Shown here: in pieces, positions 14,732 to 51,262 of the stretch | Position numbering within the stretch: the stretch's first letter is position 1 | How the letters are laid out: every line of letters starts with the position of its first letter | Origin: Halocatena marina | GTDB lineage: Archaea > Halobacteriota > Halobacteria > Halobacteriales > Haloarculaceae | DNA length: 64,000 nt | Assembly: GCF_023276375.1 (NCBI RefSeq) | Contig: NZ_JALLPK010000001.1 | Location: forward strand, 3,721,391-3,785,390 | Reading direction: 5' to 3' | Position numbers and translations under genes: made by a program | The notes under the pieces: model-generated | Seen by the model: the letters and a program-made list of their open reading frames with translations, nothing else | What the model was told of the DNA's origin: nothing | Database searches by the model: none

Positions 14732-15151
14732 ATGATGCCCACCCGGATGACCTCCACTTTCGAGTTCCTCTTTGGGAGGTCATGGGTTGTCTCGCTACGG
14801 ATTATTGCAGTTGGTGTGTTTCTCTCGATAAGTATTGGTCTGATCGGGCGGCTGATCCCGTTGGGTGCGATTGTCGTTTATCGATCAGAGATTGCAGGTG
14901 TTCTTGCTAGTATGGCATTCCTCAGTGGAGCAGGAGCGATCGCCTACTTCAATTCTGGCTACGTTGTGATATTACTGATTCAGGTACTTCTTCTGCTTGG
15001 ATTATTTACCAGCGGTGGTGTCGCAGTGTTTCCCGGGTCGAGTATGGTCGAACAGTTTCAACTGAAAATCCAATTTGCAATTGTAATCGGTCTCTTGCTC
15101 AGTACTATCGGATACGCCGTTGGTGGTGCTGTTCGGTCTATTCGAAGCTGA
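14732..15151 (+). CDS. Small polytopic membrane protein (4 predicted TM helices), hypothetical
   Basis: 139 aa with hydrophobic helices (IIAVGVFLSISIGLIGRLIPLGAIVV..., VVILLIQVLLLLGLF..., FAIVIGLLLSTIGYAVGGAV). It sits in the low-GC islet and shows atypical codon usage. Confidence 0.4.
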   Translation: MMPTRMTSTFEFLFGRSWVVSLRIIAVGVFLSISIGLIGRLIPLGAIVVYRSEIAGVLASMAFLSGAGAIAYFNSGYVVILLIQVLLLLGLFTSGGVAVFPGSSMVEQFQLKIQFAIVIGLLLSTIGYAVGGAVRSIRS

Positions 15152-15514
15152 TTACCTATGAGAAACTGTGACCGTAGAATGGTACTCTCTCAAATGCTGG
15201 TCGATAAGCAGTCACGAAAACGAGTTGGCTGATAATGTCTTGCCGCAAGAAACACCATCCGAAAACAATTATATGGATTTTGTATTTGTTGGTGTAATTA
15301 GATATGAATGTGATATAAAATATGACAGTGGAGAAATTCATACCTCGGTTAAATAAAATAGCATTGGATAAATTGAAATATGATGATTGTGAATTAGATT
15401 ACCGAGTCTTGATATTCACCGCGGAAAATGGTGGCTGTTGAGTCATATCATGTTTCGAACCTATAATGCAACTTCGACAATCTATTTTACGAATGTGACA
15501 GTACTCCGAGTCAG

Positions 15515-16660: not shown

Positions 16661-16745
16661 TAAGACATACTGTATCATTCACATCTAATAAATATAGTTT
16701 GTCTTCTCGTAATTCGCTCGGCGATGTTGACGCGACGGAATTCTC

Positions 16746-17621: not shown

Positions 17622-17624
17622 GCG

Positions 17625-19673
17625 TTATTGTGGGCTCGGGCTGCCGGGGCCGGTGGCAGAGCCCGATTCGAGTGCTTGTCCGGTAATGCTCTTGAGACGG
17701 TCGACGAGCGAGTCCTTTTCTGGTTCACCAACCAGCGCGATGTCGAGCACTTCGCTGATGTGTGAGACTGGAATGATCTCGATCATTTCCTTGTACTCGT
17801 CTTCGATCATCACGTCTTGCATGTTCGCGGCGGGGATGATGACTGTCTCCACCCCGGCCTTGGCGGCGGCCTCAATCTTGTGAGTCACGCCACCGACGGG
17901 GAGAACGTCACCGCGAACCGACAGTGAACCAGTCATCGCAACGCTCTGATCGATCGGGATGTCCTCCAACGAGCTGATGACGGCTGTGGCCATTGTGACG
18001 CTTGCAGAGTCGCCTTCAACTCCTTCGTAGGACTGCACGTACTGGATGTGGATGTCCCTCTTGGAAATGTCCTCATCAGAGAACTTCTTGATGATGGCAG
18101 AGACGTTCTGAACAGCTTCCTGTGCAATGTCCTGAAGGTTACCAGTTGCGATAACCTCACCAGGTCCCTGTGAAGGAGCAACCTCGGCCATCACCGGCAT
18201 CACGATGCCGGAGTCTTCGCCCATGACTGCAAGGCCGTTGACCCGACCTCCGACGTTCCCTTGCGCGATGGTCATATCGTAATCTTTGCGCCGCTCGATG
18301 TAATCATCGGCAAGCTGCTGTTCGATAGAGCGCGAACGTCCTTTCGCCTGCAGAACGTGGTCTCGGGTCGTGAACTCAGCATCCTCAGCGCGGGCGATGT
18401 CACCTGCAACTCGTACGAGTCCACCGAGGGCTCGCAGTTCGAGCGTCAGGTGCCCCTTGCGACCGGAGCGACGCCGCGCTTCGAGGATGAGTTCTTCGGC
18501 GGCAGTGCGGGTGAAATGCGGTAGTCGGCCGTCTTTCTTAACTTCCTGAGCGATGAAGCGAGAGTACTTCCGGCGCATCTCCGGTGTATCCTCGATGGTG
18601 TCATCCATGTACACCTCGTACCCGTAGCCTTTGATACGGTTCCGGAGTGCTGGGTGCATATTCTCCATCGCATCGAGGTTCCCCGCAGCGACCATGATGA
18701 AGTCCGTCGGAACCGGTTCGGTCTGGACCATCGCGCCCGAGGAGCGCTCGGACTGCCCCGTGATCGAGAACTCACCTTCCTGAATGGCAGTCATCAGCTT
18801 TTGCTGTGACCTGATATCGAGGGTGTTGATCTCGTCGATGAACAGCACGCCTTTGTTCGACTTGTGAATGGCACCAGGCTCAACGCGATCGTGGCTCGGT
18901 GTCTCCATCCCACCTGACTGGAATGGGTCGTGTCGAACGTCCCCGAGCAGCGCGCCAGCGTGTGCGCCTGTTGCGTCCTCGAACGGGGCCGTCTGCTTAT
19001 CGGCGTTGTTCACGAGCAGATTCGGGATCATCGCGTCGCTGCCGCGACTGCTGTAGCGGAAGACGAGATAGATGATTCCTGCTGCAAGAATCCCGATGAG
19101 AAGCTGCTGGCGAAGGATCAACGCGTACCCAAGGACGATCGCGATGATAATCCACATGAGGAACGACCGCATTTGGTTGCGCTTTCTGGCTTCCTCTTTA
19201 TGTGCATCGACGATCTGGTCGCCTTTTCCTGCTGGCACCGTCCGGATCTTCGGCTCATTCCCGTCGTCGGGATTGTGGTAGACCAATATGTCTTGGAGTT
19301 CTTCTCGTGGGAGAAGCTGGCTCATCGCCTTTGCGAGCATCGACTTGCCCGTGCCCGGTGACCCGATCATCATCACGTGGCGGCGCTGTTTGGCCGCTTT
19401 CAGGACGATGTCTCGGGCGTGATCCTGTCCGATGACCTGATCGACGAGCCGATCTGGCACCTCAATGTCGGCGGTAGTATCAATTTTTAGGCCGCCGAGC
19501 AGGTCGTCTTCGGCCATCTCTTCGTCGATCTTCTCCTCGTTGATCTGCTCTTCGCCAATCTGCTCCCCGCCGACTTCGCGAACGACCTCGGCGGATCGGT
19601 CTCCCGACTCGGATAGCGAATCGCTTGTCCCCCCGCTCCCCGGAAGAGCCTCATCTGGGTTGTTATCGCTCAT
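17625..19673 (-). CDS. lonB: Archaeal membrane-bound Lon protease (LonB)
   Basis: AAA+ Walker A GSPGTGKSM, a membrane-anchoring insertion with two TM helices (LMWIIIAIVLGYALI..., LIGILAAGIIYLV), and a C-terminal Lon protease domain with the catalytic Ser (VDGDSASVTMATAVIS). Confidence 0.95.
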   Translation of the reverse strand: MSDNNPDEALPGSGGTSDSLSESGDRSAEVVREVGGEQIGEEQINEEKIDEEMAEDDLLGGLKIDTTADIEVPDRLVDQVIGQDHARDIVLKAAKQRRHVMMIGSPGTGKSMLAKAMSQLLPREELQDILVYHNPDDGNEPKIRTVPAGKGDQIVDAHKEEARKRNQMRSFLMWIIIAIVLGYALILRQQLLIGILAAGIIYLVFRYSSRGSDAMIPNLLVNNADKQTAPFEDATGAHAGALLGDVRHDPFQSGGMETPSHDRVEPGAIHKSNKGVLFIDEINTLDIRSQQKLMTAIQEGEFSITGQSERSSGAMVQTEPVPTDFIMVAAGNLDAMENMHPALRNRIKGYGYEVYMDDTIEDTPEMRRKYSRFIAQEVKKDGRLPHFTRTAAEELILEARRRSGRKGHLTLELRALGGLVRVAGDIARAEDAEFTTRDHVLQAKGRSRSIEQQLADDYIERRKDYDMTIAQGNVGGRVNGLAVMGEDSGIVMPVMAEVAPSQGPGEVIATGNLQDIAQEAVQNVSAIIKKFSDEDISKRDIHIQYVQSYEGVEGDSASVTMATAVISSLEDIPIDQSVAMTGSLSVRGDVLPVGGVTHKIEAAAKAGVETVIIPAANMQDVMIEDEYKEMIEIIPVSHISEVLDIALVGEPEKDSLVDRLKSITGQALESGSATGPGSPSPQ

Positions 19674-19830
19674 AGAACCGTGCTCTCATCATATAGGATG
19701 TGATGTTTACTGATATACTTTCTCCCCTCTTTCTCGTATCTGTCTGTCGAAATCGCCACCCATGAGAGTGACTGACAGCATTTTCGGCTCGACCGAAGGA
19801 CGTTGGGCTTATTAAACGTCCGGGTGAGGT

Positions 19831-20352
19831 TTGAGTATGCGCGGGTTCCTTATTGGGCGGTTCCAGCCCTTCCATGAGGGCCACCAGACAATGGTCGAAC
19901 GAATCGCCCCAGAGGTCGACGAACTCGTTCTCGGTATCGGCAGTGCTGATCAGTCACACACGATGCGTAACCCGTTCACCCCCGGTGAGCGCATCATGAT
20001 GATCACCAAAGCCGTCTCGAAACTCGACCTCACTACCTATGCTGTTCCGATCGAGGATCTGAATCGAAATGCGGTGTGGGTGAGCCACGTTCAGAGTATG
20101 TCTCCTCATTTTGACGTAGCGTACTCGAACAATCCGCTGGTCGTACGGCTGTTCGAGGAAGCCGGGGTCGAGGTCCGGTCGACCCCAATGATCAGACGCG
20201 AAGAACTCGAAGGCTCCGAAGTCCGCGATCGAATGTGTCGAGACGAAAATTGGGAGTCACTCGTTCCTGATGCGGTCGTCGAAGTCATCGACGAGATCGA
20301 TGGTGCCAACCGACTTCGACAGGTGAGTGACTCGGATGCAAACGGAGCGTAA
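19831..20352 (+). CDS. nadM: Nicotinamide-nucleotide adenylyltransferase (archaeal NMNAT)
   Basis: MRGFLIGRFQPFHEGHQTMVERIA contains the (H/T)xGH nucleotidyltransferase motif of archaeal NMNAT, and SxT/ISAT-like GSADQSHT follows. 173 aa. Confidence 0.9.
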   Translation: MSMRGFLIGRFQPFHEGHQTMVERIAPEVDELVLGIGSADQSHTMRNPFTPGERIMMITKAVSKLDLTTYAVPIEDLNRNAVWVSHVQSMSPHFDVAYSNNPLVVRLFEEAGVEVRSTPMIRREELEGSEVRDRMCRDENWESLVPDAVVEVIDEIDGANRLRQVSDSDANGA

Positions 20353-20412
20353 TCAATCTCACTGTAGCACAACGCAGTTCGGTTTTTAGCGCTCCGATCC
20401 AAACAGACTGCC

Positions 20413-21156
20413 ATGATCACGCTCGCAACTGATTTTGGCTCTCCGTATCCGGCGGCGATGCGGGGTGTTATTCTCGGTGCCTGTGATGCTCGTATCGTCG
20501 ACATCACGCACGAGTTTCCGCGCCAGGACGTACAGACGGCTGCGTTTTGGCTCCGCGAGGTGCTCCCGTATTACCCACCAGCCGTCCACTGTGCGGTCGT
20601 CGATCCAGGTGTCGGAACTGACCGTGCTGCACTCCTCGTACGGGCAGGCGAACACCTACTTGTCGGTCCGGATAATGGTCTCCTCTTACCAGCCGCCCGT
20701 GCGCTCTCTGAACGTATCGATGTTTTTGAGTGGCAGTACGAATCCCCAGACAGCACGACATTCCACGGACGAGACGTGTTCGCACCAGCAGCAGCAGCCG
20801 TCCACGAACACAGCATCGCGGAACTCGATCGTGCGAGACCGACCGACGAGTACGTCGATCACGCGTTCCCCGAACCCGAACTCCGCGAACAGGACGTGAT
20901 CGGCACAGTCCTCGTCGTCGATGGGTTCGGAAACGTAATCACGAACATTCCCGGCACCGTTCTCGATGCGTGTAATGAATCCGTCATGGTGAACGAAGAA
21001 CGAGTGCCAGTCGAGCGGGCGTACGCCCAACTCGAACCCAACAGCCGACTCGTCACAGTCGGGAGCCACGGAAATGTCGAACTCGCCGTGAATCAGGGGC
21101 GCGGCGATAGAGCGTTCGATCTGGACACCGGTGATGCGGTCCGACTCGAATTGTGA
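20413..21156 (+). CDS. SAM hydroxide adenosyltransferase / SAM hydrolase (DUF62, fluorinase/chlorinase-like fold)
   Basis: MITLATDFGSPYPAAMRGVI...CAVVDPGVGTDR...GPDNGLL...FHGRDVFAPAAA is the DUF62 core. It is typically found adjacent to nadM in archaea. Confidence 0.85.
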   Translation: MITLATDFGSPYPAAMRGVILGACDARIVDITHEFPRQDVQTAAFWLREVLPYYPPAVHCAVVDPGVGTDRAALLVRAGEHLLVGPDNGLLLPAARALSERIDVFEWQYESPDSTTFHGRDVFAPAAAAVHEHSIAELDRARPTDEYVDHAFPEPELREQDVIGTVLVVDGFGNVITNIPGTVLDACNESVMVNEERVPVERAYAQLEPNSRLVTVGSHGNVELAVNQGRGDRAFDLDTGDAVRLEL

Positions 21157-41846: not shown

Positions 41847-43529
41847 ATGCAGCCGTTGTTCAGGCTTGCGATTTCGATATTTCCTTCGTGGCTCCCGGTT
41901 TATGATCTCCTTCTCGTCGGTGCTATCGTTCTCTCATTCGGTATTGCCAGATGGTTCGGTGGCTTCGATCCCGTTCGGGTCGCACGAACGCGCTTTCGCT
42001 GGGGGATTCCGTGGGGGACACTCTCTATTAGTGGTTTCGTGCTTTTCGTGTATCTCTTCGTTCAGAATGGGATTACCTACCCTAATGCGCCAACCGTGAT
42101 TCCGTTTCGAGCGTGGTCGTATTTCTCCCCAACAGGGATTGTGATGTCACCGTTCACGCACGCGAATCGTGGACATGTCACCGGTAACATCGTTGGAACG
42201 CTCACCGTTGGCGTGCTGGCGGAGTATCTGTGGTCTCACTATCCTGAAAAGCGAACATCGAATGCATCCACGTCGTTAAAACGTGGATTCGTGCCGACAC
42301 TGGCTCATCCGTCCGTGCGAATACTTGCGTTCGTCGTCGGATCTCTCGTTGTTGGTCTCTTGTCTGGCGTGTTTTCGCTCGGGCCGACGATCGGATTCTC
42401 GGGTGTGGTCTTTGCGTACGCTGGTTTCACACTGATGCGATATCCGCTCGGAACAGTGCTCGTACTGCTTTCCGGCCGCGTTCTCTCGCTCGTCTATCAA
42501 TCGATCAAAAATCCAACGGTCACACAAGCCGGACAGCCACAGTTCGTCACGCCGTGGTGGGCAGGTATCTCGCTCCAAGGCCACGCATTGGGACTGTTCA
42601 TCGGTGCGCTGTGTGGGATCTATCTCGTTCGTCGTCGATCGGTCCGTCCGAATGGACTCCGTCTCTGGTCGGGCGTTCTCATCTTTGCCGTATTCGAGGG
42701 GATGTGGGCGATGTACATCCCGCTGGGTGGATCTCAATTCAAGCTGTTTCGAGCCATCGGAGCGGCAGCAGTCTTCTTACTCGCAGCGTTGCTCACGATT
42801 GCGGTCCAAAGCTCGAATCAGCCGTTGTTCGGTCGCTCTAGAATCCAGTACAAGGACGCTGCACTGAGTCTCGTGGCCGTCTTGCTCGTCGTCATCGCTG
42901 CGGTGGCTGTTCCGTACAATCTATTTACTGTTTCCGATCGATCATCGGGGATCACTGATCAAAACAGCATTCAGGTTCGGGGCTACACCATCGCGTACGC
43001 CGAAGGGATTCCTAATCAGTACATCTCGGACGTCGAATTCAATGCATTAGGTGAGACGACGAATGTAAAGGCAAGTGGCGTCATCGTCGTCAACGATCAA
43101 CAGGAAATCTGGTGGCAGGAGATCTCGAAAGATCGACTCGGATTTGATCATAGGGTCGCTGTGCGTGTCGGCGGCATTGGGTGGCGCGAGACCGTTCTCG
43201 CCAGTCGAACGACGTGGAAGGTCGTCGGGAACCACTCGGTGTACACCGTCCAGTTAGAACACGACGACGAACGAACCCACGTATTCACCTCACAACCCGC
43301 ACGCGCCGAACCGACCATCGCGGGCCGGAACGTCACATTCGTCCCCGGCGAAACGTTCTCGTTTCGCGTCACACGCAACGGAACCGTGCTTGGTCAAGCA
43401 GACATCCCCGAACGCGACGAAGCGGTCTCTGCTGGCGGACTCACGCTCGTCCGAATGAAAAACCGTTTGTACGCAATGAACAACCAAACCCGAGTCCGAA
43501 TAGCGAAATACGTCCCACCGAAAAAATAA
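41847..43529 (+). CDS. Rhomboid family intramembrane serine protease with a large C-terminal extracytoplasmic domain
   Basis: Catalytic GxSG in TIGFSGVVFAYAGF and catalytic His in ISLQGHALGLFIGALCG. There are six or more TM helices, then a roughly 250 aa soluble domain. Confidence 0.8.
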   Translation: MQPLFRLAISIFPSWLPVYDLLLVGAIVLSFGIARWFGGFDPVRVARTRFRWGIPWGTLSISGFVLFVYLFVQNGITYPNAPTVIPFRAWSYFSPTGIVMSPFTHANRGHVTGNIVGTLTVGVLAEYLWSHYPEKRTSNASTSLKRGFVPTLAHPSVRILAFVVGSLVVGLLSGVFSLGPTIGFSGVVFAYAGFTLMRYPLGTVLVLLSGRVLSLVYQSIKNPTVTQAGQPQFVTPWWAGISLQGHALGLFIGALCGIYLVRRRSVRPNGLRLWSGVLIFAVFEGMWAMYIPLGGSQFKLFRAIGAAAVFLLAALLTIAVQSSNQPLFGRSRIQYKDAALSLVAVLLVVIAAVAVPYNLFTVSDRSSGITDQNSIQVRGYTIAYAEGIPNQYISDVEFNALGETTNVKASGVIVVNDQQEIWWQEISKDRLGFDHRVAVRVGGIGWRETVLASRTTWKVVGNHSVYTVQLEHDDERTHVFTSQPARAEPTIAGRNVTFVPGETFSFRVTRNGTVLGQADIPERDEAVSAGGLTLVRMKNRLYAMNNQTRVRIAKYVPPKK

Positions 43530-43591
43530 CACTGACTTCGATGTCATTCCTCGGTGAGATTGGTCGAGTATCCCCCTGATGCGGTACTGGA

Positions 43592-43642
43592 TTTAGGCAT
43601 GCCTAAAAATCAATACTTTTATGTTGTTTAGGCGAACCTAAA
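43592..43642. promoter_or_regulatory. Two copies of the inverted repeat TTTAGG-N4-CCTAAA (TTTAGGCATGCCTAAA and TTTAGGCGAACCTAAA), spaced about 35 bp apart upstream of the siderophore operon
   Basis: The palindromes are seen directly. The half-site TTAGG/CCTAA matches the DtxR/IdeR iron-box core (TTAGGTTAGGCTAACCTAA). Haloarchaea use DtxR-family Idr regulators for iron uptake genes. Confidence 0.55.
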
Positions 43643-43717
43643 ATATTGTATGCAGAGATTGATGTCCCGGACGTGGCGCGTCGTCAACGATCGTGACGAA
43701 CAGAGACACAACGGGGT

Positions 43718-45082
43718 ATGAGACAGATGGTTACAAACGAGGATTTCTTGACACAGCAGTCTCGACGCGAATCGAACGCACGAACGTATCCTCGTGGGAT
43801 ACCGATCGCGATTCAGTCGGCTCGTGGAATCGAGATCAAAGACGTCGAGGGGAACACGTACATCGATTGTCTCGCGGGTGCCGGTACCCTCGCTCTTGGT
43901 CACAATCATCCGGTCGTCGTCGATGCAATGCAGAGCGCGCTTGAAGACGACCGCGCGCTTCACACGCTCGACCTCACGACACCGATCAAAGAACAGTTCG
44001 TAGATACGCTGTTCGATAGCCTCCCAGATGAGTTCACAGACTCTGCGAAGATTCAGTTCTGTAGTCCAGCTGGAACGGATGCGGTTGAGGCGGCGCTGAA
44101 ATTAGTGAAGCACGCGACTGGAAATCGGGATGTGCTGGCGTTTCAGGGCGGCTATCACGGGATGACGAACGGTGCACTGAGTTTAATGGGTGACGTGGAG
44201 GCCAAAGAGGGCGTTTCGGGTTTGATGTCTGGTGTTCATCACCTACCGTACCCCTACGAGTACCGGTGTCCGTTCGGGGGTGAAGGCAGCACTCACGAAA
44301 CCGCCAGTCGATACGTCGAGCGTCTGCTCGATAATCCGACCAGCGGTATCGCTGAACCGGCCGGGATGATCGTCGAACTCGTTCAGGGAGAGGGTGGTAT
44401 GATTCCCGCACCAGATGCGTGGACGAAGGAGATTCGACGGATCACACGAGAGCGTGACATCCCGCTCATCGTCGATGAGATTCAGACCGGACTTGGGCGG
44501 ACAGGCGAGCAGTACGCGTTCGAACACGCCGACATCACACCTGATGTCATCACGCTCTCGAAGGCGATCGGTGGCAGCCTTCCGCTGGCGGTCGTGTTGT
44601 ACCACGAGCGATACGATGTCTGGGAGCCGGGAGCACACGCGGGAACGTTCCGTGGGAATCAGCTGGCGATGGCGGCGGGCCAAGCGACGATCGAATACGT
44701 TCTCGAACACGATCTCGCCTCGCACGCAGCGGAGATGGGTGCGCGACTCCAAGAGAAACTATCCCAGACAGCGCAACTCGACGTTGTCGGTGACGTTCGC
44801 GGGCGCGGGCTCATGATCGGCGTCGAAATTGTCGATCCGACCGGCGAACAAGAGCCAGACGGAAGCTATCCAGAGAACCCCGATCTCGCAAAGCAAATTC
44901 AGTCTGGCTGTGTCGATCGCGGACTCATCATCGAACGTGGTGGTCGGCGAGGGAGCACAGCACGATTCCTCCCGCCGTTGATCGTCTCGAAAGGCCAGAT
45001 CGACACGATCGTAGAGATTTTCCACGAAGCCGTTGTTGGGGCTCGATCGGATCCATCATCTGATGAGCAGACCAATCGATGA
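43718..45082 (+). CDS. dat: Diaminobutyrate--2-oxoglutarate aminotransferase (class III PLP aminotransferase; RhbA/EctB-like)
   Basis: ESNARTYPRGIPIAIQSARGIEIKDVEGNTYIDCLAGAGTLALGHNHP..., PLP-Lys region DEIQTGLGRTG...TLSKAIGG. 4-nt overlap with the next gene. Confidence 0.9.
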   Translation: MRQMVTNEDFLTQQSRRESNARTYPRGIPIAIQSARGIEIKDVEGNTYIDCLAGAGTLALGHNHPVVVDAMQSALEDDRALHTLDLTTPIKEQFVDTLFDSLPDEFTDSAKIQFCSPAGTDAVEAALKLVKHATGNRDVLAFQGGYHGMTNGALSLMGDVEAKEGVSGLMSGVHHLPYPYEYRCPFGGEGSTHETASRYVERLLDNPTSGIAEPAGMIVELVQGEGGMIPAPDAWTKEIRRITRERDIPLIVDEIQTGLGRTGEQYAFEHADITPDVITLSKAIGGSLPLAVVLYHERYDVWEPGAHAGTFRGNQLAMAAGQATIEYVLEHDLASHAAEMGARLQEKLSQTAQLDVVGDVRGRGLMIGVEIVDPTGEQEPDGSYPENPDLAKQIQSGCVDRGLIIERGGRRGSTARFLPPLIVSKGQIDTIVEIFHEAVVGARSDPSSDEQTNR

Positions 45083-46638
45083 GCGGGACGAAAACGTTTC
45101 GTGAGAGTCCAGAAGATCTCACAGAAGGGCTCTTCTTGGGAACTGATGCCGGGACCATCGCCTACCGGACAGCGATGGGGCAGGCCCAGCAGGCCGTTCT
45201 CGACGCGTACTTACGGCGCGCAACGCCCTATTCGGGCGCGTCACACGAACAACAGGCAGCACAGCTTGCATCGATCGAGTGTCTCCCAGAGGACGGACGA
45301 GGATTGCCCGCGACGATCGAACTGGTCGCCGAGACGGTGCTCCAACATTCGGTCGGCGTCTCCGATCCCGCCTGCGTCGCACACTTACAGTGCCCACCGA
45401 TGATCCCGGCACTCGCCGCTGAGGCGATGATTACCGCGACGAACCAGTCGTTGGACTCGTGGGATCAGAGTCCGTCTGCAACCGAACTTGAAACGCGCCT
45501 CGTCGACGCGTTGGCTGAGGTGTTCGGATACGAGGAGCACTCAGATGGCGTGTTCACGAGCGGGGGAACACAGTCGAATTTCATGGCACTCCTCCTCGCT
45601 CGGAACTGGTATCTCGATGATCGATTCGATCACAATGCACGAATTGACGGACTTCCACCTGAGATTGATTCACTCCGTATTCTCTGCTCAGAGGACGCCC
45701 ATTTCACCACGCGCCAAAGTGCAGCGCAGCTCGGTCTCGGTGAAAATGCCGTTGTCACAGTTCCCACAGACGACGAGCATCGTCTCTCGGTCGATGCGCT
45801 CGATTCGACGGTTCAGACCCTGTGCGAACGGGATCTACAGCCATTCGCACTCGTTGGAACCGCTGGAACCACCGATTTCGGGAGCATCGATCCGCTTACA
45901 CCCCTTGCCCAACGCGCGCACGAACACAACATGTGGTTTCACGTCGATGCGGCCTACGGCGGCGCACTCGCGTTCAGCGAGCGACACAACGAGAAATTGA
46001 GCGGAATCGCTCTCTCCGATTCAATCAGTATCGACTTCCACAAGCTGTTCTATCAACCGCTCAGCTGTGGCGCATTCCTCCTCCGAGAGGGTGATCGATA
46101 CCGATACATCGATCGCAACGCCGCGTATCTCAATCCCGAATCCGACGATACTGATGGCGTCGTGAACCTCGTCTCGAAATCCGTCCAGACATCCCGGCGA
46201 TTCGACGCTCTGAAACCGTTTATCGCGTTCCAGACGCTCGGTCGAGCGGGAATCGCGGAGCTGATCGATTACACTCTCGAACTCGCCACGGCCGTCGCCG
46301 ACACGATCGCTGCCGATCCTGCCTTCGAGCTGAAACACGAACCAACGCTGAATGCTGTCGTGTTCCGCTATCTGCCAACAACAGACGCGAACGGATCGGC
46401 CACGAGCGAAACGAGCGAGGTAAACGAGCGGATTCGTGATCGATTGCGCGCGGAGGGTGACGCTATCATCGCGCGGACAACGGTCGATGCGGAGACCTAT
46501 CTCAAGTTCACGCTGTTGAACCCGCAGACAACGATCAGTGATGTCGAACGAATCCTCGAAGCGATCAAACAGTACGGGACAGAGATCACACCGCTTTATG
46601 AACAGAAAACAAACTACGATGCCTCAGCTGAAGAATAA
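45079..46638 (+). CDS. ddc: L-2,4-diaminobutyrate decarboxylase (group II PLP-dependent decarboxylase; RhbB-like)
   Basis: Pyridoxal-dependent decarboxylase conserved domain: TSGGTQSNFMALLLAR...SIDFHKLFYQPLSCGAFL, with the Lys in DFHK. Confidence 0.9.
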   Translation: MSGTKTFRESPEDLTEGLFLGTDAGTIAYRTAMGQAQQAVLDAYLRRATPYSGASHEQQAAQLASIECLPEDGRGLPATIELVAETVLQHSVGVSDPACVAHLQCPPMIPALAAEAMITATNQSLDSWDQSPSATELETRLVDALAEVFGYEEHSDGVFTSGGTQSNFMALLLARNWYLDDRFDHNARIDGLPPEIDSLRILCSEDAHFTTRQSAAQLGLGENAVVTVPTDDEHRLSVDALDSTVQTLCERDLQPFALVGTAGTTDFGSIDPLTPLAQRAHEHNMWFHVDAAYGGALAFSERHNEKLSGIALSDSISIDFHKLFYQPLSCGAFLLREGDRYRYIDRNAAYLNPESDDTDGVVNLVSKSVQTSRRFDALKPFIAFQTLGRAGIAELIDYTLELATAVADTIAADPAFELKHEPTLNAVVFRYLPTTDANGSATSETSEVNERIRDRLRAEGDAIIARTTVDAETYLKFTLLNPQTTISDVERILEAIKQYGTEITPLYEQKTNYDASAEE

Positions 46639-46640
46639 AA

Positions 46641-48527
46641 ATGACTGATAAATCGATATCCTCCGAGAAAATTGCTGAATCGGCAACGATCCACAGTTTC
46701 GTGAACTGCTATCTGCGCGAGACAGGAAACTACGACCGTCTGAAACCGGACGAGATCTCGATCACAGCACGGGACGGTAGAAACGATGGTGGAGATGACA
46801 ACAACGATAATGGAGAGAGCGATGGAAATGGGGGACGGCTGTCGTGTGATACCGTCTTCTGGAGTGAACTGTCTACTCTGAATCTCGATTTACTATTTCC
46901 CGTCCGATACGAATCGCCAACTGGGCGCCACCTGTTTGACCTTCCGGTGTACGTTCGCTCAGCCGGGGATTGGATCGAGCTGGACTACACCACGCTCGCA
47001 AGTCTGATCGTTCGTGAGCTCGCGCTTTCACGCTCGGACTCAGACGACAGTGCTGATGAGCTACTGTTGCGAGTCATTCGGAGTGCTCGTAACATCGAAC
47101 GTTACGTTGCAGCCCGAGACGATTTCGAGCAGCTCTACGGGTTCGAGACGACCTTTCGGGACGCCGAGCAGTCACTCGTGTTCGGTCATCTCCTTCATCC
47201 GACGCCAAAAAGTAGACAAGGGATCGCTCGCCGTGATGCGCCGACGTACGCGCCCGAGCTACACGGGGCGTTTCAGCTGCACTACTTCCGCGCTGATCCC
47301 GAAATTGTGACACAGGGGTCGGCGCGCGAGGAGAGCGCCACAGAATGGGTAAAATCGGAGCTACGCGACGATCCAAACGTTTCGAATGCGTTCATCTCCT
47401 CACACGTCGACAGCGAGGACGCGTTACTCCCAATCCACCCGTGGCAAGCCGAGTATCTCCTCGATCAACCCCACGTCCAACAGGCGATCGAGGACGGGTG
47501 CCTCGAACATCTTGGCGCACACGGACGGACGTTCTATCCCACATCATCCGTTCGTACTTTGTACAACCCGACTGCCGCATTCATGGTGAAAGGGTCACTC
47601 GATGTGAAGATCACCAACTCCGTTCGAACGAACAAACGACCGGAGCTAGAGCGAGGCGTCGCTGTGAGCGAACTTCTCGAAACAGAGTTGGGAGCGCAAC
47701 TCCGAGAGCGGTTTCCAGACTTTCAGGTCGTTCGTGACCCCGCCTCTCTCACGCTCGATATCGGGACCGAGCGGGAGTCAGGGTTCGAAGTTGTCCTCCG
47801 TGACAATCCGTTCCGTGGTGATGCAGCGACGAATGCGACGCCGGTCGTTGCTCTATGCCAGGATCACCTCTATCGTACAACCGACCGAACCGACCACAAT
47901 GCCTCGCGGCTCGATCACATCATTCGGACGCTCGCAGACCGCGAAGGTCGCACGACAGCGACGGTTAGTGAGGACTGGTTCCGTCAGTATCTCGCAATTT
48001 CTGTGCGCCCGGTGCTCTGGTTGTACCTCACCCACGGCGTCGGCGTCGAGGCACATCAGCAAAACAGCGTGCTGGCCTTGGATGACGGCTATCCTGACCA
48101 GTTCTACTACCGCGACAATCAGGGCTATTACTTCTGTGAATCGACCTACGAGGCCGTCGATGCACTTCTTCCTGGCGTCGGTGAACGAGCAGACACGATC
48201 TGTCCGGACGCGATTGCAGACGAGCGCATCCGATACTACGTCATTTTGAACAACACGTTCGGTCTCATCAACGCCTTCGGATGCGCCGATCTCGTCGACG
48301 AGCGGCGATTGTTAGAGCTTCTTCGCGAGGAACTGAACCGGTTGCAAGCGTTCGACCGCGAGACGTCGAACTTGTTGGAGCCGCTTCTCACGTCACCGAC
48401 GATTCCCTGCAAGGCGAACTTGCTCACTCGATTTCACGGGATGGACGAGCTCGAAGCCTCGATCGAGAACCAGTCGGTGTATACGGAGATCGACAACCCG
48501 CTCGTTACTGAACGGGAGGCCCAGTGA
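46641..48527 (+). CDS. iucA: IucA/IucC family NRPS-independent siderophore synthetase (RhbC-like)
   Basis: 628 aa, with the IucA/IucC N-terminal domain and a FhuF-like C-terminal domain. Motifs include HPWQAEYLL and AAFMVKGSLDVKITNSVRT. Placing it as the iucA/rhbC paralog rather than iucC is a guess. Confidence 0.9.
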   Translation: MTDKSISSEKIAESATIHSFVNCYLRETGNYDRLKPDEISITARDGRNDGGDDNNDNGESDGNGGRLSCDTVFWSELSTLNLDLLFPVRYESPTGRHLFDLPVYVRSAGDWIELDYTTLASLIVRELALSRSDSDDSADELLLRVIRSARNIERYVAARDDFEQLYGFETTFRDAEQSLVFGHLLHPTPKSRQGIARRDAPTYAPELHGAFQLHYFRADPEIVTQGSAREESATEWVKSELRDDPNVSNAFISSHVDSEDALLPIHPWQAEYLLDQPHVQQAIEDGCLEHLGAHGRTFYPTSSVRTLYNPTAAFMVKGSLDVKITNSVRTNKRPELERGVAVSELLETELGAQLRERFPDFQVVRDPASLTLDIGTERESGFEVVLRDNPFRGDAATNATPVVALCQDHLYRTTDRTDHNASRLDHIIRTLADREGRTTATVSEDWFRQYLAISVRPVLWLYLTHGVGVEAHQQNSVLALDDGYPDQFYYRDNQGYYFCESTYEAVDALLPGVGERADTICPDAIADERIRYYVILNNTFGLINAFGCADLVDERRLLELLREELNRLQAFDRETSNLLEPLLTSPTIPCKANLLTRFHGMDELEASIENQSVYTEIDNPLVTEREAQ

Positions 48528-49156
48528 TGACCGGTCCAACGTTCCCGTCGGACTACGACTACAGAACCTACAACGAGAGGCTCGAAAAGCTGATTGCATT
48601 CAGACAGGTCTCGTTGGAGCGCGATCTTGAGCGATTGCACGCGTGGCTCAACGCAGAACACGTCCTTCCATACTGGCAGCTCAACGACCCGCTTCCGACG
48701 TTTCGGGCCGAACTCGTCGAGAAAATCGAGGACGAGCATTTGGCACCGTACATCGGCTACCTCGATCACGTCCCGATGAGCTACTGGGAGTGTTACTGGG
48801 CGGCAGACGACGTGATAGCGGACTACTGTGAGACGAACGCGGCCGATCAAGGGATTCACCTGCTCATTGGTCCAGCGGAGTATCTCGGCCGTGGATACGC
48901 CGAACCGCTGGTGCGAGCCGTCACGGAGATGCAGTTTTGCCATCCAGAGACCGACCGCATCCTCACCGAACCCGATGTCAGAAACGAGACTGTGATTCAC
49001 GTCTTCGAAAAGTGTGGCTTCGAACCGCTCCGAGAGATCGAACTCCCGGAGAAAGACGCTCTGTTGATGGCCTGTGAACGAGCGCAGTTCCAACAGCACG
49101 GTTCGAGTGGAAACGAAACCCGAGTGAGTGCCGACACAGGTGAGGATGGCCAATGA
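48524..49156 (+). CDS. iucB: Siderophore-biosynthesis GNAT N-acetyltransferase (IucB/RhbD-like)
   Basis: 210 aa. The Acetyltransf_8-like core (YIGYLDHVPMSYWECYWAADD...LLIGPAEYLGRGYAEPLVRAVTEMQF) is present. It overlaps its neighbours by 4 nt on each side. Confidence 0.8.
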   Translation: MMTGPTFPSDYDYRTYNERLEKLIAFRQVSLERDLERLHAWLNAEHVLPYWQLNDPLPTFRAELVEKIEDEHLAPYIGYLDHVPMSYWECYWAADDVIADYCETNAADQGIHLLIGPAEYLGRGYAEPLVRAVTEMQFCHPETDRILTEPDVRNETVIHVFEKCGFEPLREIELPEKDALLMACERAQFQQHGSSGNETRVSADTGEDGQ

Positions 49157-50496
49157 CCGACGAACCGTACGACCTCGTTGGCATTGGTCTCGGTCCGTTC
49201 AATCTCGGTCTCGCGTCTCTCCTTGAAGACTGGGACCTCGACGTTGTGTTCCTCGAACAGCGCTCGGAGTTTTCGTGGCACGAAGGGATGCTCATCGAGG
49301 GAACGACGCTCGAAGTGCCGTTTCTCGCGGATCTCGTTACACTCGCGGATCCAACGAACCCCTACAGCTACCTCAACTATCTGCGGGAAACTGGACGAAT
49401 CTACGAATTTTACTTCTACGAGACGTTCCAGATTCCCCGAAGAGAGTACAACGACTACCTCAAGTGGGTCACAACGCGCCTCGATAACTGCCTGTTCAAT
49501 CGCCGGGTACAATCAGTGCGCTGGGAGCAAGAGGAGGAACTGTTTGTCATTACGGCCGTGCACCCCGACAGCGGGGAGGAGCATGAATACCGAGCCGCTG
49601 ACGTCGCACTCGGGATCGGGAGCCAGCCACAGATTCCCGATTCGCTACACGGTCACTCAGAAGACGTGTTTCACACAGCGGCGTATCGCTCACACCGGCA
49701 GCGGTGTCTCGATGCTGATTCAATTACGGTCGTCGGATCGGGCCAGAGCGCAGCTGAGGTCTTTTTGGATCTTCTCCAGCGCCAACCCGACGGTGAGTAC
49801 CGTCTCGATTGGCTCACCCGCTCTGAGGGATTTTTCCCGATGGAGTACTCGAAACTCGGACTCCAACATTTCACGCCGGAGTACACACAGTACGTCTACG
49901 AACTCGATCAGGACACCAAAGACGAACTCATTCCGGAGCAGGGGCTGTTGTATAAGGGGATTGACGTCAACACGAGTGCTGAGATATACGATCTCCTCTA
50001 TCGCCGATCGATCGGTGCCCGTGATCCGGACGTTGGTCTCTTCGCGATGACCGAAGTCTCGGACGTTCAGGCGACAGAAGATGGCTGTCGCCTGACTTGC
50101 GAGCAATGGCAGACTGAACAGTCATTTGTTCAGGAAAGCGATGTCGTCATTCTCGGAACTGGTTACGAACGCCCCGATCCCAGCTTTCTCGATCCACTCG
50201 AAACGCACATTGTGCGCGACGAGAGCGGTCGGTTCCGGATGAGCGAGGACTACCGCATCGAACTCGACGATGTTGCAGGCCGAGTGTTCGTCCAAAACGC
50301 CGAGTTACACACTCACGGCGTCGGTGCGCCGGATCTCGGACTCGGCTGTTACCGAAACACGCGGATTATCAATCAACTCCTCGGGCACAAAGCCTACTCG
50401 GTAGACACCGATACTGTCTATCAAGATTTCTCCGTCGAGCGGTTTCTTGAACACGCCCCCGGTGCTTCCCGAGACCAGGGTCAGCCTCAAAACTGA
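49153..50496 (+). CDS. iucD: Lysine/ornithine/diaminopropane N-monooxygenase (IucD/RhbE/SidA family flavoprotein)
   Basis: FAD motif VGIGLGPFNLGLA, NADPH motif VVGSGQSAAE and a C-terminal LGTGY motif. K_oxygenase family. Confidence 0.85.
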   Translation: MTDEPYDLVGIGLGPFNLGLASLLEDWDLDVVFLEQRSEFSWHEGMLIEGTTLEVPFLADLVTLADPTNPYSYLNYLRETGRIYEFYFYETFQIPRREYNDYLKWVTTRLDNCLFNRRVQSVRWEQEEELFVITAVHPDSGEEHEYRAADVALGIGSQPQIPDSLHGHSEDVFHTAAYRSHRQRCLDADSITVVGSGQSAAEVFLDLLQRQPDGEYRLDWLTRSEGFFPMEYSKLGLQHFTPEYTQYVYELDQDTKDELIPEQGLLYKGIDVNTSAEIYDLLYRRSIGARDPDVGLFAMTEVSDVQATEDGCRLTCEQWQTEQSFVQESDVVILGTGYERPDPSFLDPLETHIVRDESGRFRMSEDYRIELDDVAGRVFVQNAELHTHGVGAPDLGLGCYRNTRIINQLLGHKAYSVDTDTVYQDFSVERFLEHAPGASRDQGQPQN

Positions 50497-50647
50497 GAAC
50501 AGAGTCACTCTCAGGATGTAACAACATAAACCGACTGACGTACCCGCGCGAAGATGCGAGAACTAACAGAAATATTTGATGATAGCTTTCTACCGCTTCG
50601 TCATCAAGTGCACTCCACGAGATTGCAACCGATTTACGACCGACAGA

Positions 50648-51262
50648 TCACCACTCTATTCGGTACGCCTCGGCGTCGATCGTTCGTTTGTCGGTCGTAT
50701 GGAAATGGAACTGTCGCGGGAGATCGAGATCGACGGCGAACGCGTGGGTAACGGTTCCTCCGTGATCGTCAGCGAACGCCTCGATGAACGCGTGGCTCCC
50801 ATCGTTGTGTATCGAGTAGGAGACGGTTGCGATATCAGACGTTGCACGGAGGAACGCCCGATCTGCGTGCGCTCGTCCTTGTTGTGCGCCAAATGGCGGA
50901 TTCATCAGGACTGTAACCGGTTCATCCAAACAGAGTGGGAGACGGGTTGCATCACCGCGTATCCACGCTGGTGTCACTGGGGGCGTAACGCAGTGCTCGT
51001 TTTCGCGGGCCGACGAGAGCGCACGCTCATCGCGGTCGATACCGACGATTTTGCTCGCTCCACTCAGCGCCGCACCGAGCGCCAGCATCCCTGTTCCGGT
51101 TCCAAGATCGACGACAGTATTTGCAAGATCTCCGTGTGTGCCCGCGAGATGAATGAGATGGGCAGCGATATCCGCCGGCGTCGGATACTGCTCGAACTCG
51201 ATGCGTGGCTCCTCGAAGCCAGCGACCGCCGATAGTTCGCGTTCGAGCGCACCCCGTCGCAT
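50648..51262 (-). CDS. METTL5/RsmD-like N6-adenine methyltransferase (putative RNA methylase)
   Basis: SAM motif VVDLGTGTGMLALGAAL and catalytic NPPF in VLMNPPFGAQ. About 204 aa. Confidence 0.75.
   Translation of the reverse strand: MRRGALERELSAVAGFEEPRIEFEQYPTPADIAAHLIHLAGTHGDLANTVVDLGTGTGMLALGAALSGASKIVGIDRDERALSSARENEHCVTPPVTPAWIRGDATRLPLCLDEPVTVLMNPPFGAQQGRAHADRAFLRATSDIATVSYSIHNDGSHAFIEAFADDHGGTVTHAFAVDLDLPRQFHFHTTDKRTIDAEAYRIEW

What the first reader, a model, noticed from the sequence alone, without database searches (positions are those of the whole stretch)
43592..50496. Complete rhbABCDE-like NRPS-independent hydroxamate siderophore operon with twin DtxR-type iron boxes
Five genes with overlapping stop/start codons (dat, ddc, one IucA/IucC synthetase, a GNAT acyltransferase, an N-monooxygenase) reproduce the gene order rhbA-B-C-D-E of the 1,3-diaminopropane-based rhizobactin-1021/schizokinen pathway. 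Only one NIS synthetase is present here; the second (rhbF/iucC) is missing from the window, which raises the question of whether it exists elsewhere or a single enzyme iterates. About 75-125 bp upstream, two palindromes TTTAGGCATGCCTAAA and TTTAGGCGAACCTAAA match the half-site of bacterial DtxR/IdeR iron boxes, consistent with control by haloarchaeal DtxR-family Idr regulators.
Basis: partly seen in the sequence, partly recalled or inferred. Interest (0 to 1): 0.6.

Follow-up and report, generated by a model that had tools for sequence, protein, structure and literature searches.

The report
Iron-regulated siderophore operon missing its last gene
This is the Halocatena marina copy of a siderophore (iron-scavenger) operon and iron-repressor operator already characterised in Haloferax volcanii; it is ordinary except that its sixth gene has been deleted and the matching enzyme is encoded on a megaplasmid behind the same operator.

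Summary
The window (a Halocatena marina chromosome) carries dat-ddc-iucA-iucB-iucD. Two TTTAGG-N4-CCTAAA palindromes lie 76-126 bp upstream and bracket a TATA-like box.

- The operon is not complete. It is the orthologue of the known six-gene haloarchaeal dat-bdb-iucABDC operon (predicted product schizokinen). Its sixth gene, iucC, has been cleanly deleted; a fully syntenic relative still has it.
- A second synthetase does exist, in trans. The ~474-kb H. marina plasmid encodes a type C synthetase next to a glutamine-synthetase-like gene and an MFS transporter. Their shared intergenic region holds the only two copies of the same palindrome in that 31.8-kb locus.
- In Halostagnicola larsenii the same genes form one linked cluster without a terminal iucC, so trans-complementation is the best reading.
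- The five genes are under purifying selection (dN/dS 0.14).
- The palindromes match the ChIP-defined TroR operator of Haloferax volcanii, not the published Idr motifs. They are present, with at most one mismatch, upstream of dat in all 19 haloarchaeal loci checked.

One new detail: an unannotated, probably leaderless 23-codon upstream ORF runs from box 2 to an ATGA overlap with dat. Its length, not its sequence, is conserved across haloarchaea.

Verdict: a variant of a known system; modest interest.

The parts
43592..43607 (.). Operator box 1, perfect palindrome TTTAGGCATGCCTAAA, upstream of the TATA-like box
   Evidence: Arms invariant in a 5-sequence promoter alignment whose flanks are not conserved. 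Present, with at most one mismatch, in 19 other haloarchaeal dat promoters. Matches the TroR motif TTTAGGC-NNN-CCTAAAANAN (PMC10783522).
43617..43623 (+). TATA-like element TTTTATG between the two boxes
   Evidence: CTTTATG is conserved between the boxes in relatives. It lies about 27-33 nt upstream of ATG 43650. The TroR paper draws the same TATA-plus-two-motif layout for P_hvo_B0047. That it acts as a TATA box is inferred.
43627..43642 (.). Operator box 2, TTTAGGCGAACCTAAA, between the TATA-like box and the predicted transcript start
   Evidence: Start-to-start spacing to box 1 is 35 bp here and 35-36 bp in 17 other loci.
43650..43721 (+). Unannotated 23-codon upstream ORF (MQRLMSRTWRVVNDRDEQRHNGV). 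Its ATG is 7 nt after box 2 and its TGA overlaps the dat ATG (ATGA). It is probably the leaderless first cistron.
   Evidence: In 18 loci an ATG lies 3-7 nt after box 2 and opens a 16-24-codon ORF with no in-frame stop. Across 395 interior codons, the other two frames hold 11 and 10 stops. 16 of the 18 end in an A/GTGA junction with dat. In Halegenticoccus the ORF is fused in frame to dat. An ATG in the same position after a box starts long ORFs (146-491 codons). Translation has not been shown.
43718..45082 (+). dat: diaminobutyrate--2-oxoglutarate aminotransferase (RhbA-like). NCBI annotation starts it at 43727.
   Evidence: PF00202 1e-93. NF005393 732 bits (cut-off 671) and TIGR00709 516 bits (cut-off 402).
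45079..46638 (+). ddc/bdb: PLP-dependent L-2,4-diaminobutyrate decarboxylase (RhbB-like), which makes 1,3-diaminopropane
   Evidence: PF00282 6e-56. Best NCBIfam model is DABADecarRhbB at 442 bits, below its 900-bit equivalog cut-off.
46641..48527 (+). iucA: type A NIS synthetase (IucA/RhbC-like)
   Evidence: PF04183+PF06276. PDB phmmer gives IucA 190 bits, IucC 48, DesD <=34. It keeps all 188 columns that are >=95% conserved in 118 haloarchaeal orthologues. 62% identical to Hfx. volcanii IucA and 39% to RhbC.
48524..49156 (+). iucB: GNAT N-acyltransferase (IucB/RhbD-like). Alternative ATG start at 48527.
   Evidence: PF13523 2e-47.
49153..50496 (+). iucD: FAD-dependent amine N-monooxygenase (IucD/RhbE-like). 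It lacks the acidic C-terminal tail that relatives carry.
   Evidence: PF13434 2e-114. C-terminal alignment.
50480..50647 (.). Deletion scar. These 168 bp replace the 2009 bp that hold the iucD tail and all of iucC in the syntenic relative L006.
   Evidence: blastn aligns window 50317-50479 to the 3' part of L006 iucD, and 50648-50800 to the L006 methyltransferase gene. Nothing in between aligns, and tblastn finds no iucC remnant. The junction is the same in the RDMS1-type assemblies.

Best explanation
Identity. This is the Halocatena marina orthologue of the haloarchaeal dat-bdb-iucA-iucB-iucD-iucC siderophore operon. That operon resembles rhbABCDEF and its predicted product is schizokinen.

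Chemistry (inferred from homology).
1. Dat and Ddc convert aspartate semialdehyde into 1,3-diaminopropane.
2. IucD N-hydroxylates the diaminopropane and IucB acetylates it.
3. The type A synthetase IucA joins one such unit to citrate.
4. The second unit needs a type C synthetase.

The missing sixth gene. This operon lost iucC through a ~1.9-kb deletion (shown by comparison with relatives). The type C step is most likely supplied in trans by a synthetase on the ~474-kb plasmid. That gene belongs to a second haloarchaeal type C group, here called clade 2. It is transcribed divergently from a gamma-glutamylputrescine-synthetase-like gene and an MFS transporter gene.

Regulation (inferred by analogy with Haloferax volcanii). 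Both loci carry the TroR-type operator TTTAGG-N4-CCTAAA. With iron present, a DtxR-family repressor, probably a TroR orthologue, would bind the two palindromes that bracket the TATA box and block initiation. Without iron, transcription would start at or next to ATG 43650.

Translation (inferred). The leaderless 23-codon upstream ORF would be translated first. Ribosomes would then pass along a chain of overlapping or abutting stop/start codons through dat, ddc, iucA, iucB and iucD.
For: Gene identities.

Organism and orthology: the IucA protein is ~99.5% identical to H. marina's and 60-63% to Haloferax IucA.

The six-gene norm and the deletion:
- Halocatena salina has the six genes, with the same methyltransferase and diphthamide-synthase genes further downstream.
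- L006 is syntenic on both flanks and differs only by having iucC.
- Every comparator locus that carries the five-gene set also has an iucC-type gene in cis.

The operon is still in use:
- dN/dS is 0.136 between two H. marina strains that share the deletion (23 synonymous vs 10 nonsynonymous differences, p=3e-8).
- There is no rate acceleration relative to L006 (101 vs 97 unique changes).
- IucA keeps every conserved column.

The trans-encoded enzyme:
- tblastn finds it on both H. marina plasmids, and the annotation shows its neighbours.
- It is type C: DesD 350 bits, IucC 285, IucA 26. A canonical operon IucC gives the same profile.
- The only two TTAGG-N4-CCTAA sites of that 31.8-kb locus lie in its 311-bp upstream intergenic region.

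Clade-2 enzymes do serve this pathway elsewhere:
- One, 73% identical, is the sixth gene of a canonical operon in Halorussus sp. MSC15.2.
- In Halostagnicola larsenii, glnA2-MFS-dat-ddc-iucA-iucB-iucD has no terminal iucC, and a 63%-identical type C gene is divergent from it.

Operator: the TroR motif, tandem sites around a TATA box, loss of repression in a troR deletion, and either site sufficing come from PMC10783522. Conservation is shown.

Upstream ORF.
Against: - Everything here is sequence inference. No transcript, binding or metabolite data exist for H. marina.
- No DtxR-family gene lies in the window, and a TroR orthologue in H. marina could not be looked up.
- The plasmid enzyme is only 52-54% identical to the native-type IucC.
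- Its gene pair with the GS-like gene also occurs with no dat..iucD genes within 10 kb, in Haloarcula pellucida and Halocatena pleomorpha. The module may therefore have a job of its own.
- Schizokinen is itself only a predicted product in archaea (PMC7407949, PMC11349517).
- I could not search the rest of the H. marina chromosome for further synthetases.
- The strain divergence behind the dN/dS value is small (pS 0.014).
Confidence: 0.65

Rival explanations
1. The five-gene operon works alone. Either the type A synthetase adds both diaminopropane units to citrate, as the single synthetases of rhizoferrin pathways do, or the end product is the mono-substituted citryl-hydroxamate (calculated ~306 Da) acting as a weaker chelator. 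The plasmid synthetase would then belong to an unrelated pathway.
For: - The operon is under purifying selection without a cis iucC.
- The plasmid gene pair (type C plus GS-like gene) also occurs without the hydroxamate genes nearby.
- The plasmid enzyme is only 52-54% identical to native-type IucC.
Against: - IucA shows no change at any of 188 conserved columns and no accelerated evolution, so nothing points to a new specificity.
- It scores 62 bits against the FslA rhizoferrin model, whose cut-off is 1000.
- Every comparator cluster pairs the five genes with a type C enzyme.
- The plasmid gene carries the same operator.
Confidence: 0.15
2. The operon is a decaying remnant. After iucC was lost the pathway became non-functional, and the remaining genes are drifting or survive only to supply 1,3-diaminopropane.
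For: - iucC is deleted.
- Two assemblies show frameshifts in ddc and iucD.
- dat and bdb homologues occur widely outside siderophore clusters (PMC7407949).
Against: - The frameshifts are single-base changes in homopolymer runs, in assemblies otherwise identical to an intact one. They look like sequencing errors.
- All five ORFs are intact in two strains, with dN/dS 0.136.
- The operator, the TATA-like box and the upstream ORF are all intact.
Confidence: 0.05
3. The palindromes are bound by an Idr-type rather than a TroR-type DtxR paralogue. They might also be bound by several paralogues.
For: - In Halobacterium salinarum, Idr2 affects iucABC expression (PMC3074139).
- DtxR paralogues are closely related, and which ones H. 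marina has is unknown.
- One GTT-N9-AAC match overlaps box 2.
Against: - The published Idr motifs differ from this palindrome, and WCGAS[C/A]TCGW is absent from the promoter.
- The GTT-N9-AAC match is not kept in relatives.
- In Hfx. volcanii the motif comes from TroR ChIP-seq, and idr or sirR deletions left dat regulation intact.
Confidence: 0.15

Closest known systems
Haloferax volcanii HVO_B0046-HVO_B0041 (dat-bdb-iucA-iucB-iucD-iucC), Niessen & Soppa 2020 (PMC7407949)
   Same: Same five enzymes in the same order with 4-nt overlaps. IucA is 62% identical. The operon is iron-regulated and carries TroR boxes. A short upstream ORF ends in ATGA on dat.
   Different: The sixth gene, iucC, is absent here. 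This copy is chromosomal, not on pHV3. Here a twin box sits directly upstream of dat; in Hfx. volcanii single boxes lie at -69 and -378 from dat, and one more directly precedes HVO_B0047.
TroR operator of Haloferax volcanii, Martinez-Pastor et al. 2024 (PMC10783522)
   Same: Sequence TTTAGGC-N3-CCTAAAA. [quoted passage not shown]
   Different: Binding and regulation have not been tested in Halocatena. No TroR gene lies in the window.
Halostagnicola larsenii XH-48 plasmid cluster glnA2-MFS-dat-ddc-iucA-iucB-iucD with a divergent type C synthetase (NZ_CP007056.1)
   Same: The five-gene set has no terminal iucC. It is accompanied by a clade-2 type C synthetase (63% identical), a GS-like gene (69%) and an MFS gene (66%), and TroR-type boxes precede each unit.
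   Different: There everything is linked in one divergent gene cluster. In H. marina the five genes are chromosomal, and the GS-like, MFS and type C genes are on the megaplasmid.
Sinorhizobium meliloti rhbABCDEF (rhizobactin 1021)
   Same: Gene order A-E and diaminopropane-based chemistry. RhbC is 39% identical to the window's synthetase, and the RhbB model is the best match for Ddc.
   Different: No rhbF here. This is an archaeal promoter with a DtxR-family operator, not the rhizobial regulation (from my own knowledge). No lipid-tail step is implied.
Bacterial DtxR/IdeR 19-bp iron box (TTAGGTTAGCCTAACCTAA; consensus from my own knowledge)
   Same: It shares the TTAGG...CCTAA arms. Box 2 plus 4 upstream bases matches the IdeR consensus at 15 of 19 positions.
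   Different: This is a 16-bp palindrome with a 4-bp core, not a 19-bp 9-1-9 palindrome. It sits around an archaeal TATA box.

Membership tests
rhbABCDEF / haloarchaeal dat-bdb-iucABDC hydroxamate siderophore operon | First gene is a diaminobutyrate--2-oxoglutarate aminotransferase | tested here: met
   PF00202. NF005393 732 bits, above its 671 cut-off; TIGR00709 516 bits, above 402.
rhbABCDEF / haloarchaeal dat-bdb-iucABDC hydroxamate siderophore operon | Second gene is an L-2,4-diaminobutyrate decarboxylase | tested here: inconclusive
   PF00282 is met. The RhbB equivalog is the best NCBIfam model by far, but its 442 bits fall below the 900-bit cut-off. Orthology to haloarchaeal bdb genes is 58-76% identity.
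rhbABCDEF / haloarchaeal dat-bdb-iucABDC hydroxamate siderophore operon | Type A (IucA/RhbC) citrate-activating NIS synthetase | tested here: met
   IucA 190 bits vs IucC 48. All 188 conserved columns are kept. RhbC is 39% identical.
rhbABCDEF / haloarchaeal dat-bdb-iucABDC hydroxamate siderophore operon | IucB/RhbD-type acyltransferase and IucD/RhbE-type N-monooxygenase | tested here: met
   PF13523 2e-47 and PF13434 2e-114.
rhbABCDEF / haloarchaeal dat-bdb-iucABDC hydroxamate siderophore operon | Type C (IucC/RhbF) synthetase in the same operon | tested here: not met
   Absent from the whole window. Deleted relative to L006. A type C gene exists in trans on the megaplasmid.
rhbABCDEF / haloarchaeal dat-bdb-iucABDC hydroxamate siderophore operon | Product is a citrate-dihydroxamate siderophore made under iron starvation | not testable with these tools
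   Needs a CAS assay, LC-MS and expression data.
Haloarchaeal TroR (DtxR-family) operator | Motif TTTAGGC-NNN-CCTAAAA | tested here: met
   Two copies, 0.01 expected. Motif taken from PMC10783522.
Haloarchaeal TroR (DtxR-family) operator | Tandem sites about 30 bp apart around the TATA box, conserved in orthologous promoters | tested here: met
   35-bp spacing with TTTTATG between the boxes. Same pair in 19 other loci, 35-36 bp apart in 17.
Haloarchaeal TroR (DtxR-family) operator | A TroR orthologue is encoded and binds in an iron-dependent way | not testable with these tools
   No DtxR-family gene in the window.
Bacterial DtxR/IdeR iron box | 19-bp interrupted palindrome TTAGGTTAGCCTAACCTAA | tested here: not met
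   The best match in the window has 4-5 mismatches. Only the TTAGG/CCTAA arms are shared.
Halobacterium salinarum Idr1/Idr2 sites | GTT-N8,9-AAC or WCGAS[C/A]TCGW | tested here: not met
   WCGAS[C/A]TCGW is absent from 43530-43730. One GTT-N9-AAC overlaps box 2 but is not kept in relatives.
Single-synthetase NIS pathways (DesD/PubC/AlcC type C; FslA/LbtA rhizoferrin) | The sole synthetase is an iterative type C or a rhizoferrin-type enzyme | tested here: not met
   The window's enzyme is IucA-like type A. FslA model 62 bits against a 1000-bit cut-off.

The most novel reading that the evidence does not exclude
Haloarchaeal siderophore operons may begin with an unannotated leaderless upstream ORF of roughly 16-24 codons. 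Its ATG sits 3-7 nt after the promoter-proximal TroR box, and its TGA overlaps the dat start. Translation of the whole operon would then be seeded at the 5' end of the mRNA and passed on by termination-reinitiation. The same device precedes the plasmid type C synthetase gene. In H. marina the pathway is additionally split between chromosome and megaplasmid, held together only by the shared operator, and could yield a product other than plain schizokinen.
Probability: 0.5. Interest if true: 0.45.

Novelty: new variant of a known kind. Interest (0 to 1): 0.3.

Why it matters
The operon type and its operator are already described, so the finding as written adds another member. Three smaller points are new.
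1. It is a natural case where a siderophore pathway lost its cis-encoded last enzyme yet stays under selection. A paralogous enzyme on another replicon sits behind the same operator. This makes a testable example of pathway splitting and enzyme displacement, and of chromosome-plasmid interdependence.
2. Two architectures of haloarchaeal hydroxamate clusters emerge: iucC as the terminal gene, or a divergent clade-2 type C gene with a GS-like gene and an MFS transporter. The GS-like gene has no assigned role in siderophore chemistry.
3. The length-conserved leaderless upstream ORF would explain why TroR sites lie ~100 nt upstream of start codons in organisms whose mRNAs are mostly leaderless. 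It also gives a clean system for studying translational coupling in archaea.

Tried and rejected
- **IucC protein search.** I queried with the H. salina IucC and found no H. marina protein among the top 120 hits. I briefly read this as 'no second synthetase'. That was wrong: the plasmid enzyme is only ~52% identical and fell below the listed hits. tblastn against plasmids found it.
- **Genome-contig scan with an IucA+IucC chimera.** It was meant to find iucC elsewhere in H. marina. No H. marina locus came back, although three of the six patterns came from its own IucA. The genome is apparently not in that collection, so the scan only supplied 71 comparator loci.
- **iucC remnants in the 168-bp scar.** None found.
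- **Frameshifts in ddc and iucD of two assemblies as a sign of decay.** Rejected. They are single-base homopolymer differences in assemblies otherwise identical to an intact one.
- **Neofunctionalised IucA.** Rejected. No deviation at conserved columns and no rate acceleration.
- **Reciprocal gene loss on the plasmid.** No remnants of dat, ddc, iucA, iucB, iucD or fhuD within 15 kb of the plasmid module, and no type A gene on H. marina plasmids. I do not claim this scenario.
- **Rfam scan of 43400-50800.** No hits.
- **Bacterial-type terminator scan after iucD.** Nothing found.
- **Idr motifs and the 19-bp bacterial DtxR box.** Neither is met.

Full report
**1. The observation**

The region holds five + strand ORFs: 43718-45082, 45079-46638, 46641-48527, 48524-49156 and 49153-50496. 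Their Pfam matches are unambiguous:
- class III aminotransferase
- group II PLP decarboxylase
- IucA_IucC plus the FhuF-like C-terminal domain
- Acetyltransf_8 GNAT
- Lys/Orn N-monooxygenase

Three junctions are 4-nt overlaps (ATGA, GTGA, ATGA). The ddc/iucA junction is a 2-nt gap.

The two palindromes lie at 43592-43607 and 43627-43642. TTAGG-N4-CCTAA occurs nowhere else in the 64 kb, and 0.01 matches are expected by chance.

No other IucA/IucC gene lies in the window. This rests on Pfam scans of the long ORFs and on tblastn with IucA and with a relative's IucC. The remaining genes I scanned are housekeeping: thermosome, LonB, MetRS, TFB, FtsZ and diphthamide synthase. I found no iron-uptake gene and no DtxR-family gene.

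**2. Source**

The synthetase is ~99.5% identical to the Halocatena marina IucA/IucC family protein. The window aligns over 21.9 kb to the H. marina chromosome CP110249.1 at 99.6% identity. It is therefore a second H. marina strain. It differs at 42 substitution sites in the 8 kb around the operon. The gene products are acidic, with D+E at 15-19%, as expected for a haloarchaeon.

**3. What the operon is**

- Dat passes the NCBIfam cut-offs for diaminobutyrate--2-oxoglutarate transaminase.
- Ddc's best model is the RhbB L-2,4-diaminobutyrate decarboxylase equivalog, but below its cut-off.
- The synthetase is type A: IucA 190 bits, IucC 48, DesD 34 or less.
- It is 62% identical to Haloferax volcanii IucA and 39% to Sinorhizobium RhbC.

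The gene order matches the Hfx. volcanii operon HVO_B0046-B0041 (dat-bdb-iucA-iucB-iucD-iucC). That operon is transcribed as one iron-starvation-induced transcript. It is needed for siderophore production, and it is predicted, not chemically shown, to make schizokinen (PMC7407949; PMC11349517).

**4. The operon is not complete: iucC was deleted**

- Halocatena salina has six genes, with iucC directly after iucD. The same PrmA-like methyltransferase and diphthamide-synthase genes lie further downstream.
- The closest relative found is a metagenomic contig, L006 (IucA 77% identical). It is syntenic on both sides: FAD-oxidase, APH and a rhomboid-like gene | dat ddc iucA iucB iucD iucC | methyltransferase. 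It differs from H. marina only by having iucC.
- At nucleotide level, window 50317-50479 aligns to the 3' part of L006 iucD. Window 50648-50800 aligns to the methyltransferase gene. The 168 bp in between replace 2009 bp of L006 and hold no iucC remnant.
- The deletion also removed the acidic C-terminal tail of IucD.
- In 71 loci from genomes plus several metagenomic ones, every locus with the five-gene set also has an iucC-type gene in cis. This sample is biased, because three of the six search patterns came from IucC.

**5. The truncated operon is not decaying**

- Between the window and strain RDMS1, which share the deletion junction, the five genes differ at 23 synonymous and 10 nonsynonymous sites. 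That gives pN/pS = 0.136, p = 3e-8 against neutrality.
- Frameshifts in two other assemblies are single-base homopolymer differences, in sequences otherwise identical to the intact one.
- A relative-rate test against L006, with two outgroups, gives 101 vs 97 lineage-specific changes.
- IucA keeps all 188 columns that are at least 95% conserved in 118 orthologues.

**6. A second synthetase exists in trans**

tblastn of a relative's IucC against PLSDB plasmids hit both H. marina plasmids, NZ_CP109980.1 and NZ_CP110250.1 (~474 kb each), at 52% identity. The gene encodes WP_264556301.1 (629 aa).

It is type C: DesD 350 bits, IucC 285, IucA 26. A canonical operon IucC gives the same profile.

It is transcribed divergently from a gamma-glutamylputrescine-synthetase-like gene (NF045547, 702 bits against a 650 cut-off) followed by an MFS transporter gene. 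The 311-bp shared intergenic region holds the only two TTAGG-N4-CCTAA sites of the 31.8-kb locus, one facing each transcription unit.

Haloarchaeal type C enzymes fall into two groups in my six-protein comparison, which I call clade 1 and clade 2:
- Clade 1 holds the native-type IucC of L006, H. salina and Hfx. volcanii.
- Clade 2 holds the H. marina plasmid enzyme, at ~54% identity to clade 1.

Three observations show how clade-2 enzymes are used elsewhere:
- In Halorussus sp. MSC15.2, one that is 73% identical is the sixth gene of a canonical operon.
- In Halostagnicola larsenii XH-48, glnA2-MFS-dat-ddc-iucA-iucB-iucD lies on one strand. Only 269 bp separate iucD from the next gene, so there is no room for iucC. 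A type C gene 63% identical is divergent from the cluster, followed by two substrate-binding-protein genes.
- Halostella pelagica shows the same spacing between its type A and type C genes.

So 'five genes without a terminal iucC, plus a clade-2 type C, a GS-like gene and an MFS gene' is a natural linked architecture. H. marina has the same gene set split over two replicons. This is why I prefer trans-complementation.

The caveat is that the GS-like/type C gene pair also occurs with no hydroxamate genes within 10 kb. This is so in Haloarcula pellucida, where it has boxes and an MFS gene, and in Halocatena pleomorpha, where it has neither. I found no remnant of the five genes near the plasmid module and no type A gene on the plasmids.

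**7. The palindromes**

They match the motif TTTAGGC-NNN-CCTAAAANAN obtained by TroR ChIP-seq in Hfx. volcanii. The following results are that paper's, not mine (PMC10783522):
- Tandem copies about 30 bp apart flank the TATA box of a siderophore-locus promoter.
- Either copy alone suffices for iron-dependent repression.
- Deleting troR derepresses the promoter.
- Deleting idr or sirR does not disturb iron control of dat.

The published Idr1/Idr2 motifs of Halobacterium salinarum are different (PMC3074139), and they are not met here. The 19-bp bacterial DtxR/IdeR box is matched only in its arms, with 4-5 mismatches.

Phylogenetic footprinting is clear. In five Halocatena-group promoters only three elements are invariant: TTTAGG-N4-CCTAAAAA, the TATA-like TTTAT and TTTAGG-N4-CCTAAA. 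The twin box, with at most one arm mismatch, is present in all 19 other haloarchaeal dat promoters examined, one of which is a near-duplicate. The start-to-start spacing is 35-36 bp in 17 of them and 53 bp in one. The last, L012, has three boxes 53 and 78 bp apart.

In the window, box 1 lies upstream of the TATA-like TTTTATG (43617-43623), and box 2 lies between it and the predicted transcript start. This is the classic geometry for blocking TBP/TFB/RNA polymerase. The mechanism is inferred from the Haloferax data and was not tested here.

**8. An unannotated upstream ORF**

Seven nt after box 2, about 27-33 nt downstream of the TATA-like box, lies ATG 43650. It opens a 23-codon ORF whose TGA (43719-43721) overlaps the dat ATG at 43718 as ATGA.
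- In 18 loci, including Hfx. volcanii, an ATG 3-7 nt after the promoter-proximal box opens an ORF of 16-24 codons.
- Across 395 interior codons there is no in-frame stop. The other two frames hold 11 and 10 stops. The joint shuffle probability is 1.6e-6, ignoring relatedness.
- 16 of the 18 end in an ATGA or GTGA junction with dat.
- In the two Halegenticoccus species the ORF is fused in frame to dat.
- The peptide itself is not conserved. L006 and L008 differ mostly by nonsynonymous changes (my reading).
- An ATG 4-6 nt after a box also opens long ORFs of 146-491 codons. Two of them are the fhuD-like gene calls HVO_B0047 of Hfx. volcanii and its counterpart in Halorussus. This supports a transcript start at that ATG.
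- The plasmid type C gene has a 52-codon version ending in TGATG. The Haloarcula and Halogeometricum versions have 24 codons.

I read this ORF as a leaderless first cistron coupled to dat by termination-reinitiation. That extends the chain of coupled genes already predicted by Niessen & Soppa, whose paper does not mention an upstream ORF. It would also explain the ~100-nt distance between TroR sites and start codons noted in the TroR paper. Translation has not been shown. Rfam finds no known RNA element in the region.

**9. Verdict**

The finding is real, but it is the known haloarchaeal schizokinen-type operon with the known TroR operator. The new points are modest:
- loss of the cis iucC, with a co-regulated clade-2 type C enzyme on the megaplasmid;
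- recognition of a second cluster architecture;
- the length-conserved leaderless upstream ORF.

Steps shown by sequence comparison: the gene identities, the deletion, purifying selection, conservation of the operator, and the existence and type of the plasmid enzyme. Steps inferred: the product, repression by TroR, trans-complementation, and translation and coupling of the upstream ORF.

Noticed in passing
window 43650-43721 (+); also L082:14825-14983 and the dat promoters of L005-L037, L080 and L084: An unannotated, length-conserved short ORF starts 3-7 nt after the promoter-proximal TroR box and ends in a stop that overlaps the start of dat, or of the type C synthetase gene. It is 16-24 codons before dat and 24-52 before the synthetase gene. 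The peptide sequence is not conserved.
   Followed up: yes
L082:12097-16872 (H. marina plasmid NZ_CP109980.1); L087, L083, L088: A gamma-glutamylputrescine-synthetase-like gene (glnA2), often with an MFS transporter gene, is divergently paired with a clade-2 type C NIS synthetase gene. It sits behind TroR-type boxes in several haloarchaeal genera. What a GS-like enzyme does in a siderophore cluster is unexplained.
   Followed up: partly
L030 (Haloferax sp. S1W plasmid pHFX2) 7096-13626: A cluster dat-ddc-iucA-iucC lacks the acetyltransferase and monooxygenase genes but keeps the same twin boxes and upstream ORF. This suggests a non-hydroxamate diaminopropane-citrate product.
   Followed up: no
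L089 (Halomicrobium mukohataei plasmid) 9953-20509: This cluster has three IucA/IucC-family genes: a type C-like gene upstream of dat, plus the usual iucA and a terminal iucC.
   Followed up: no
window 46764-46835 (IucA residues ~42-65): H. marina IucA carries an Asp/Asn/Gly-rich insertion (DGRNDGGDDNNDNGESDGNGG) that is absent from more than 80% of 118 orthologues.
   Followed up: partly
L024-L079 (Bacillota loci): Halophilic Bacillaceae, Thermoactinomycetaceae and Paenibacillus carry the same gene set at 43-64% protein identity. This fits the bacteria-to-haloarchaea transfer already proposed by Niessen & Soppa. In many Paenibacillus loci the iucC-type gene sits 1-1.5 kb beyond iucD, or upstream of dat.
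   Followed up: no
window 14001-16000: G+C drops to 0.46 against ~0.55 elsewhere. The 381-aa ORF at 15515-16660 has no Pfam match. This may be foreign DNA.
   Followed up: no
L002 and L003 (GCA_042662865.1, GCA_042663845.1), equivalent to window 45562, 49762 and 50478: Single-base homopolymer indels split ddc and iucD in these assemblies. They look like sequencing errors rather than pseudogenes.
   Followed up: yes
window 43623-43637: One GTT-N9-AAC match (the MDR1/Idr-type pattern) overlaps box 2. It is not conserved in relatives and is probably coincidental.
   Followed up: yes
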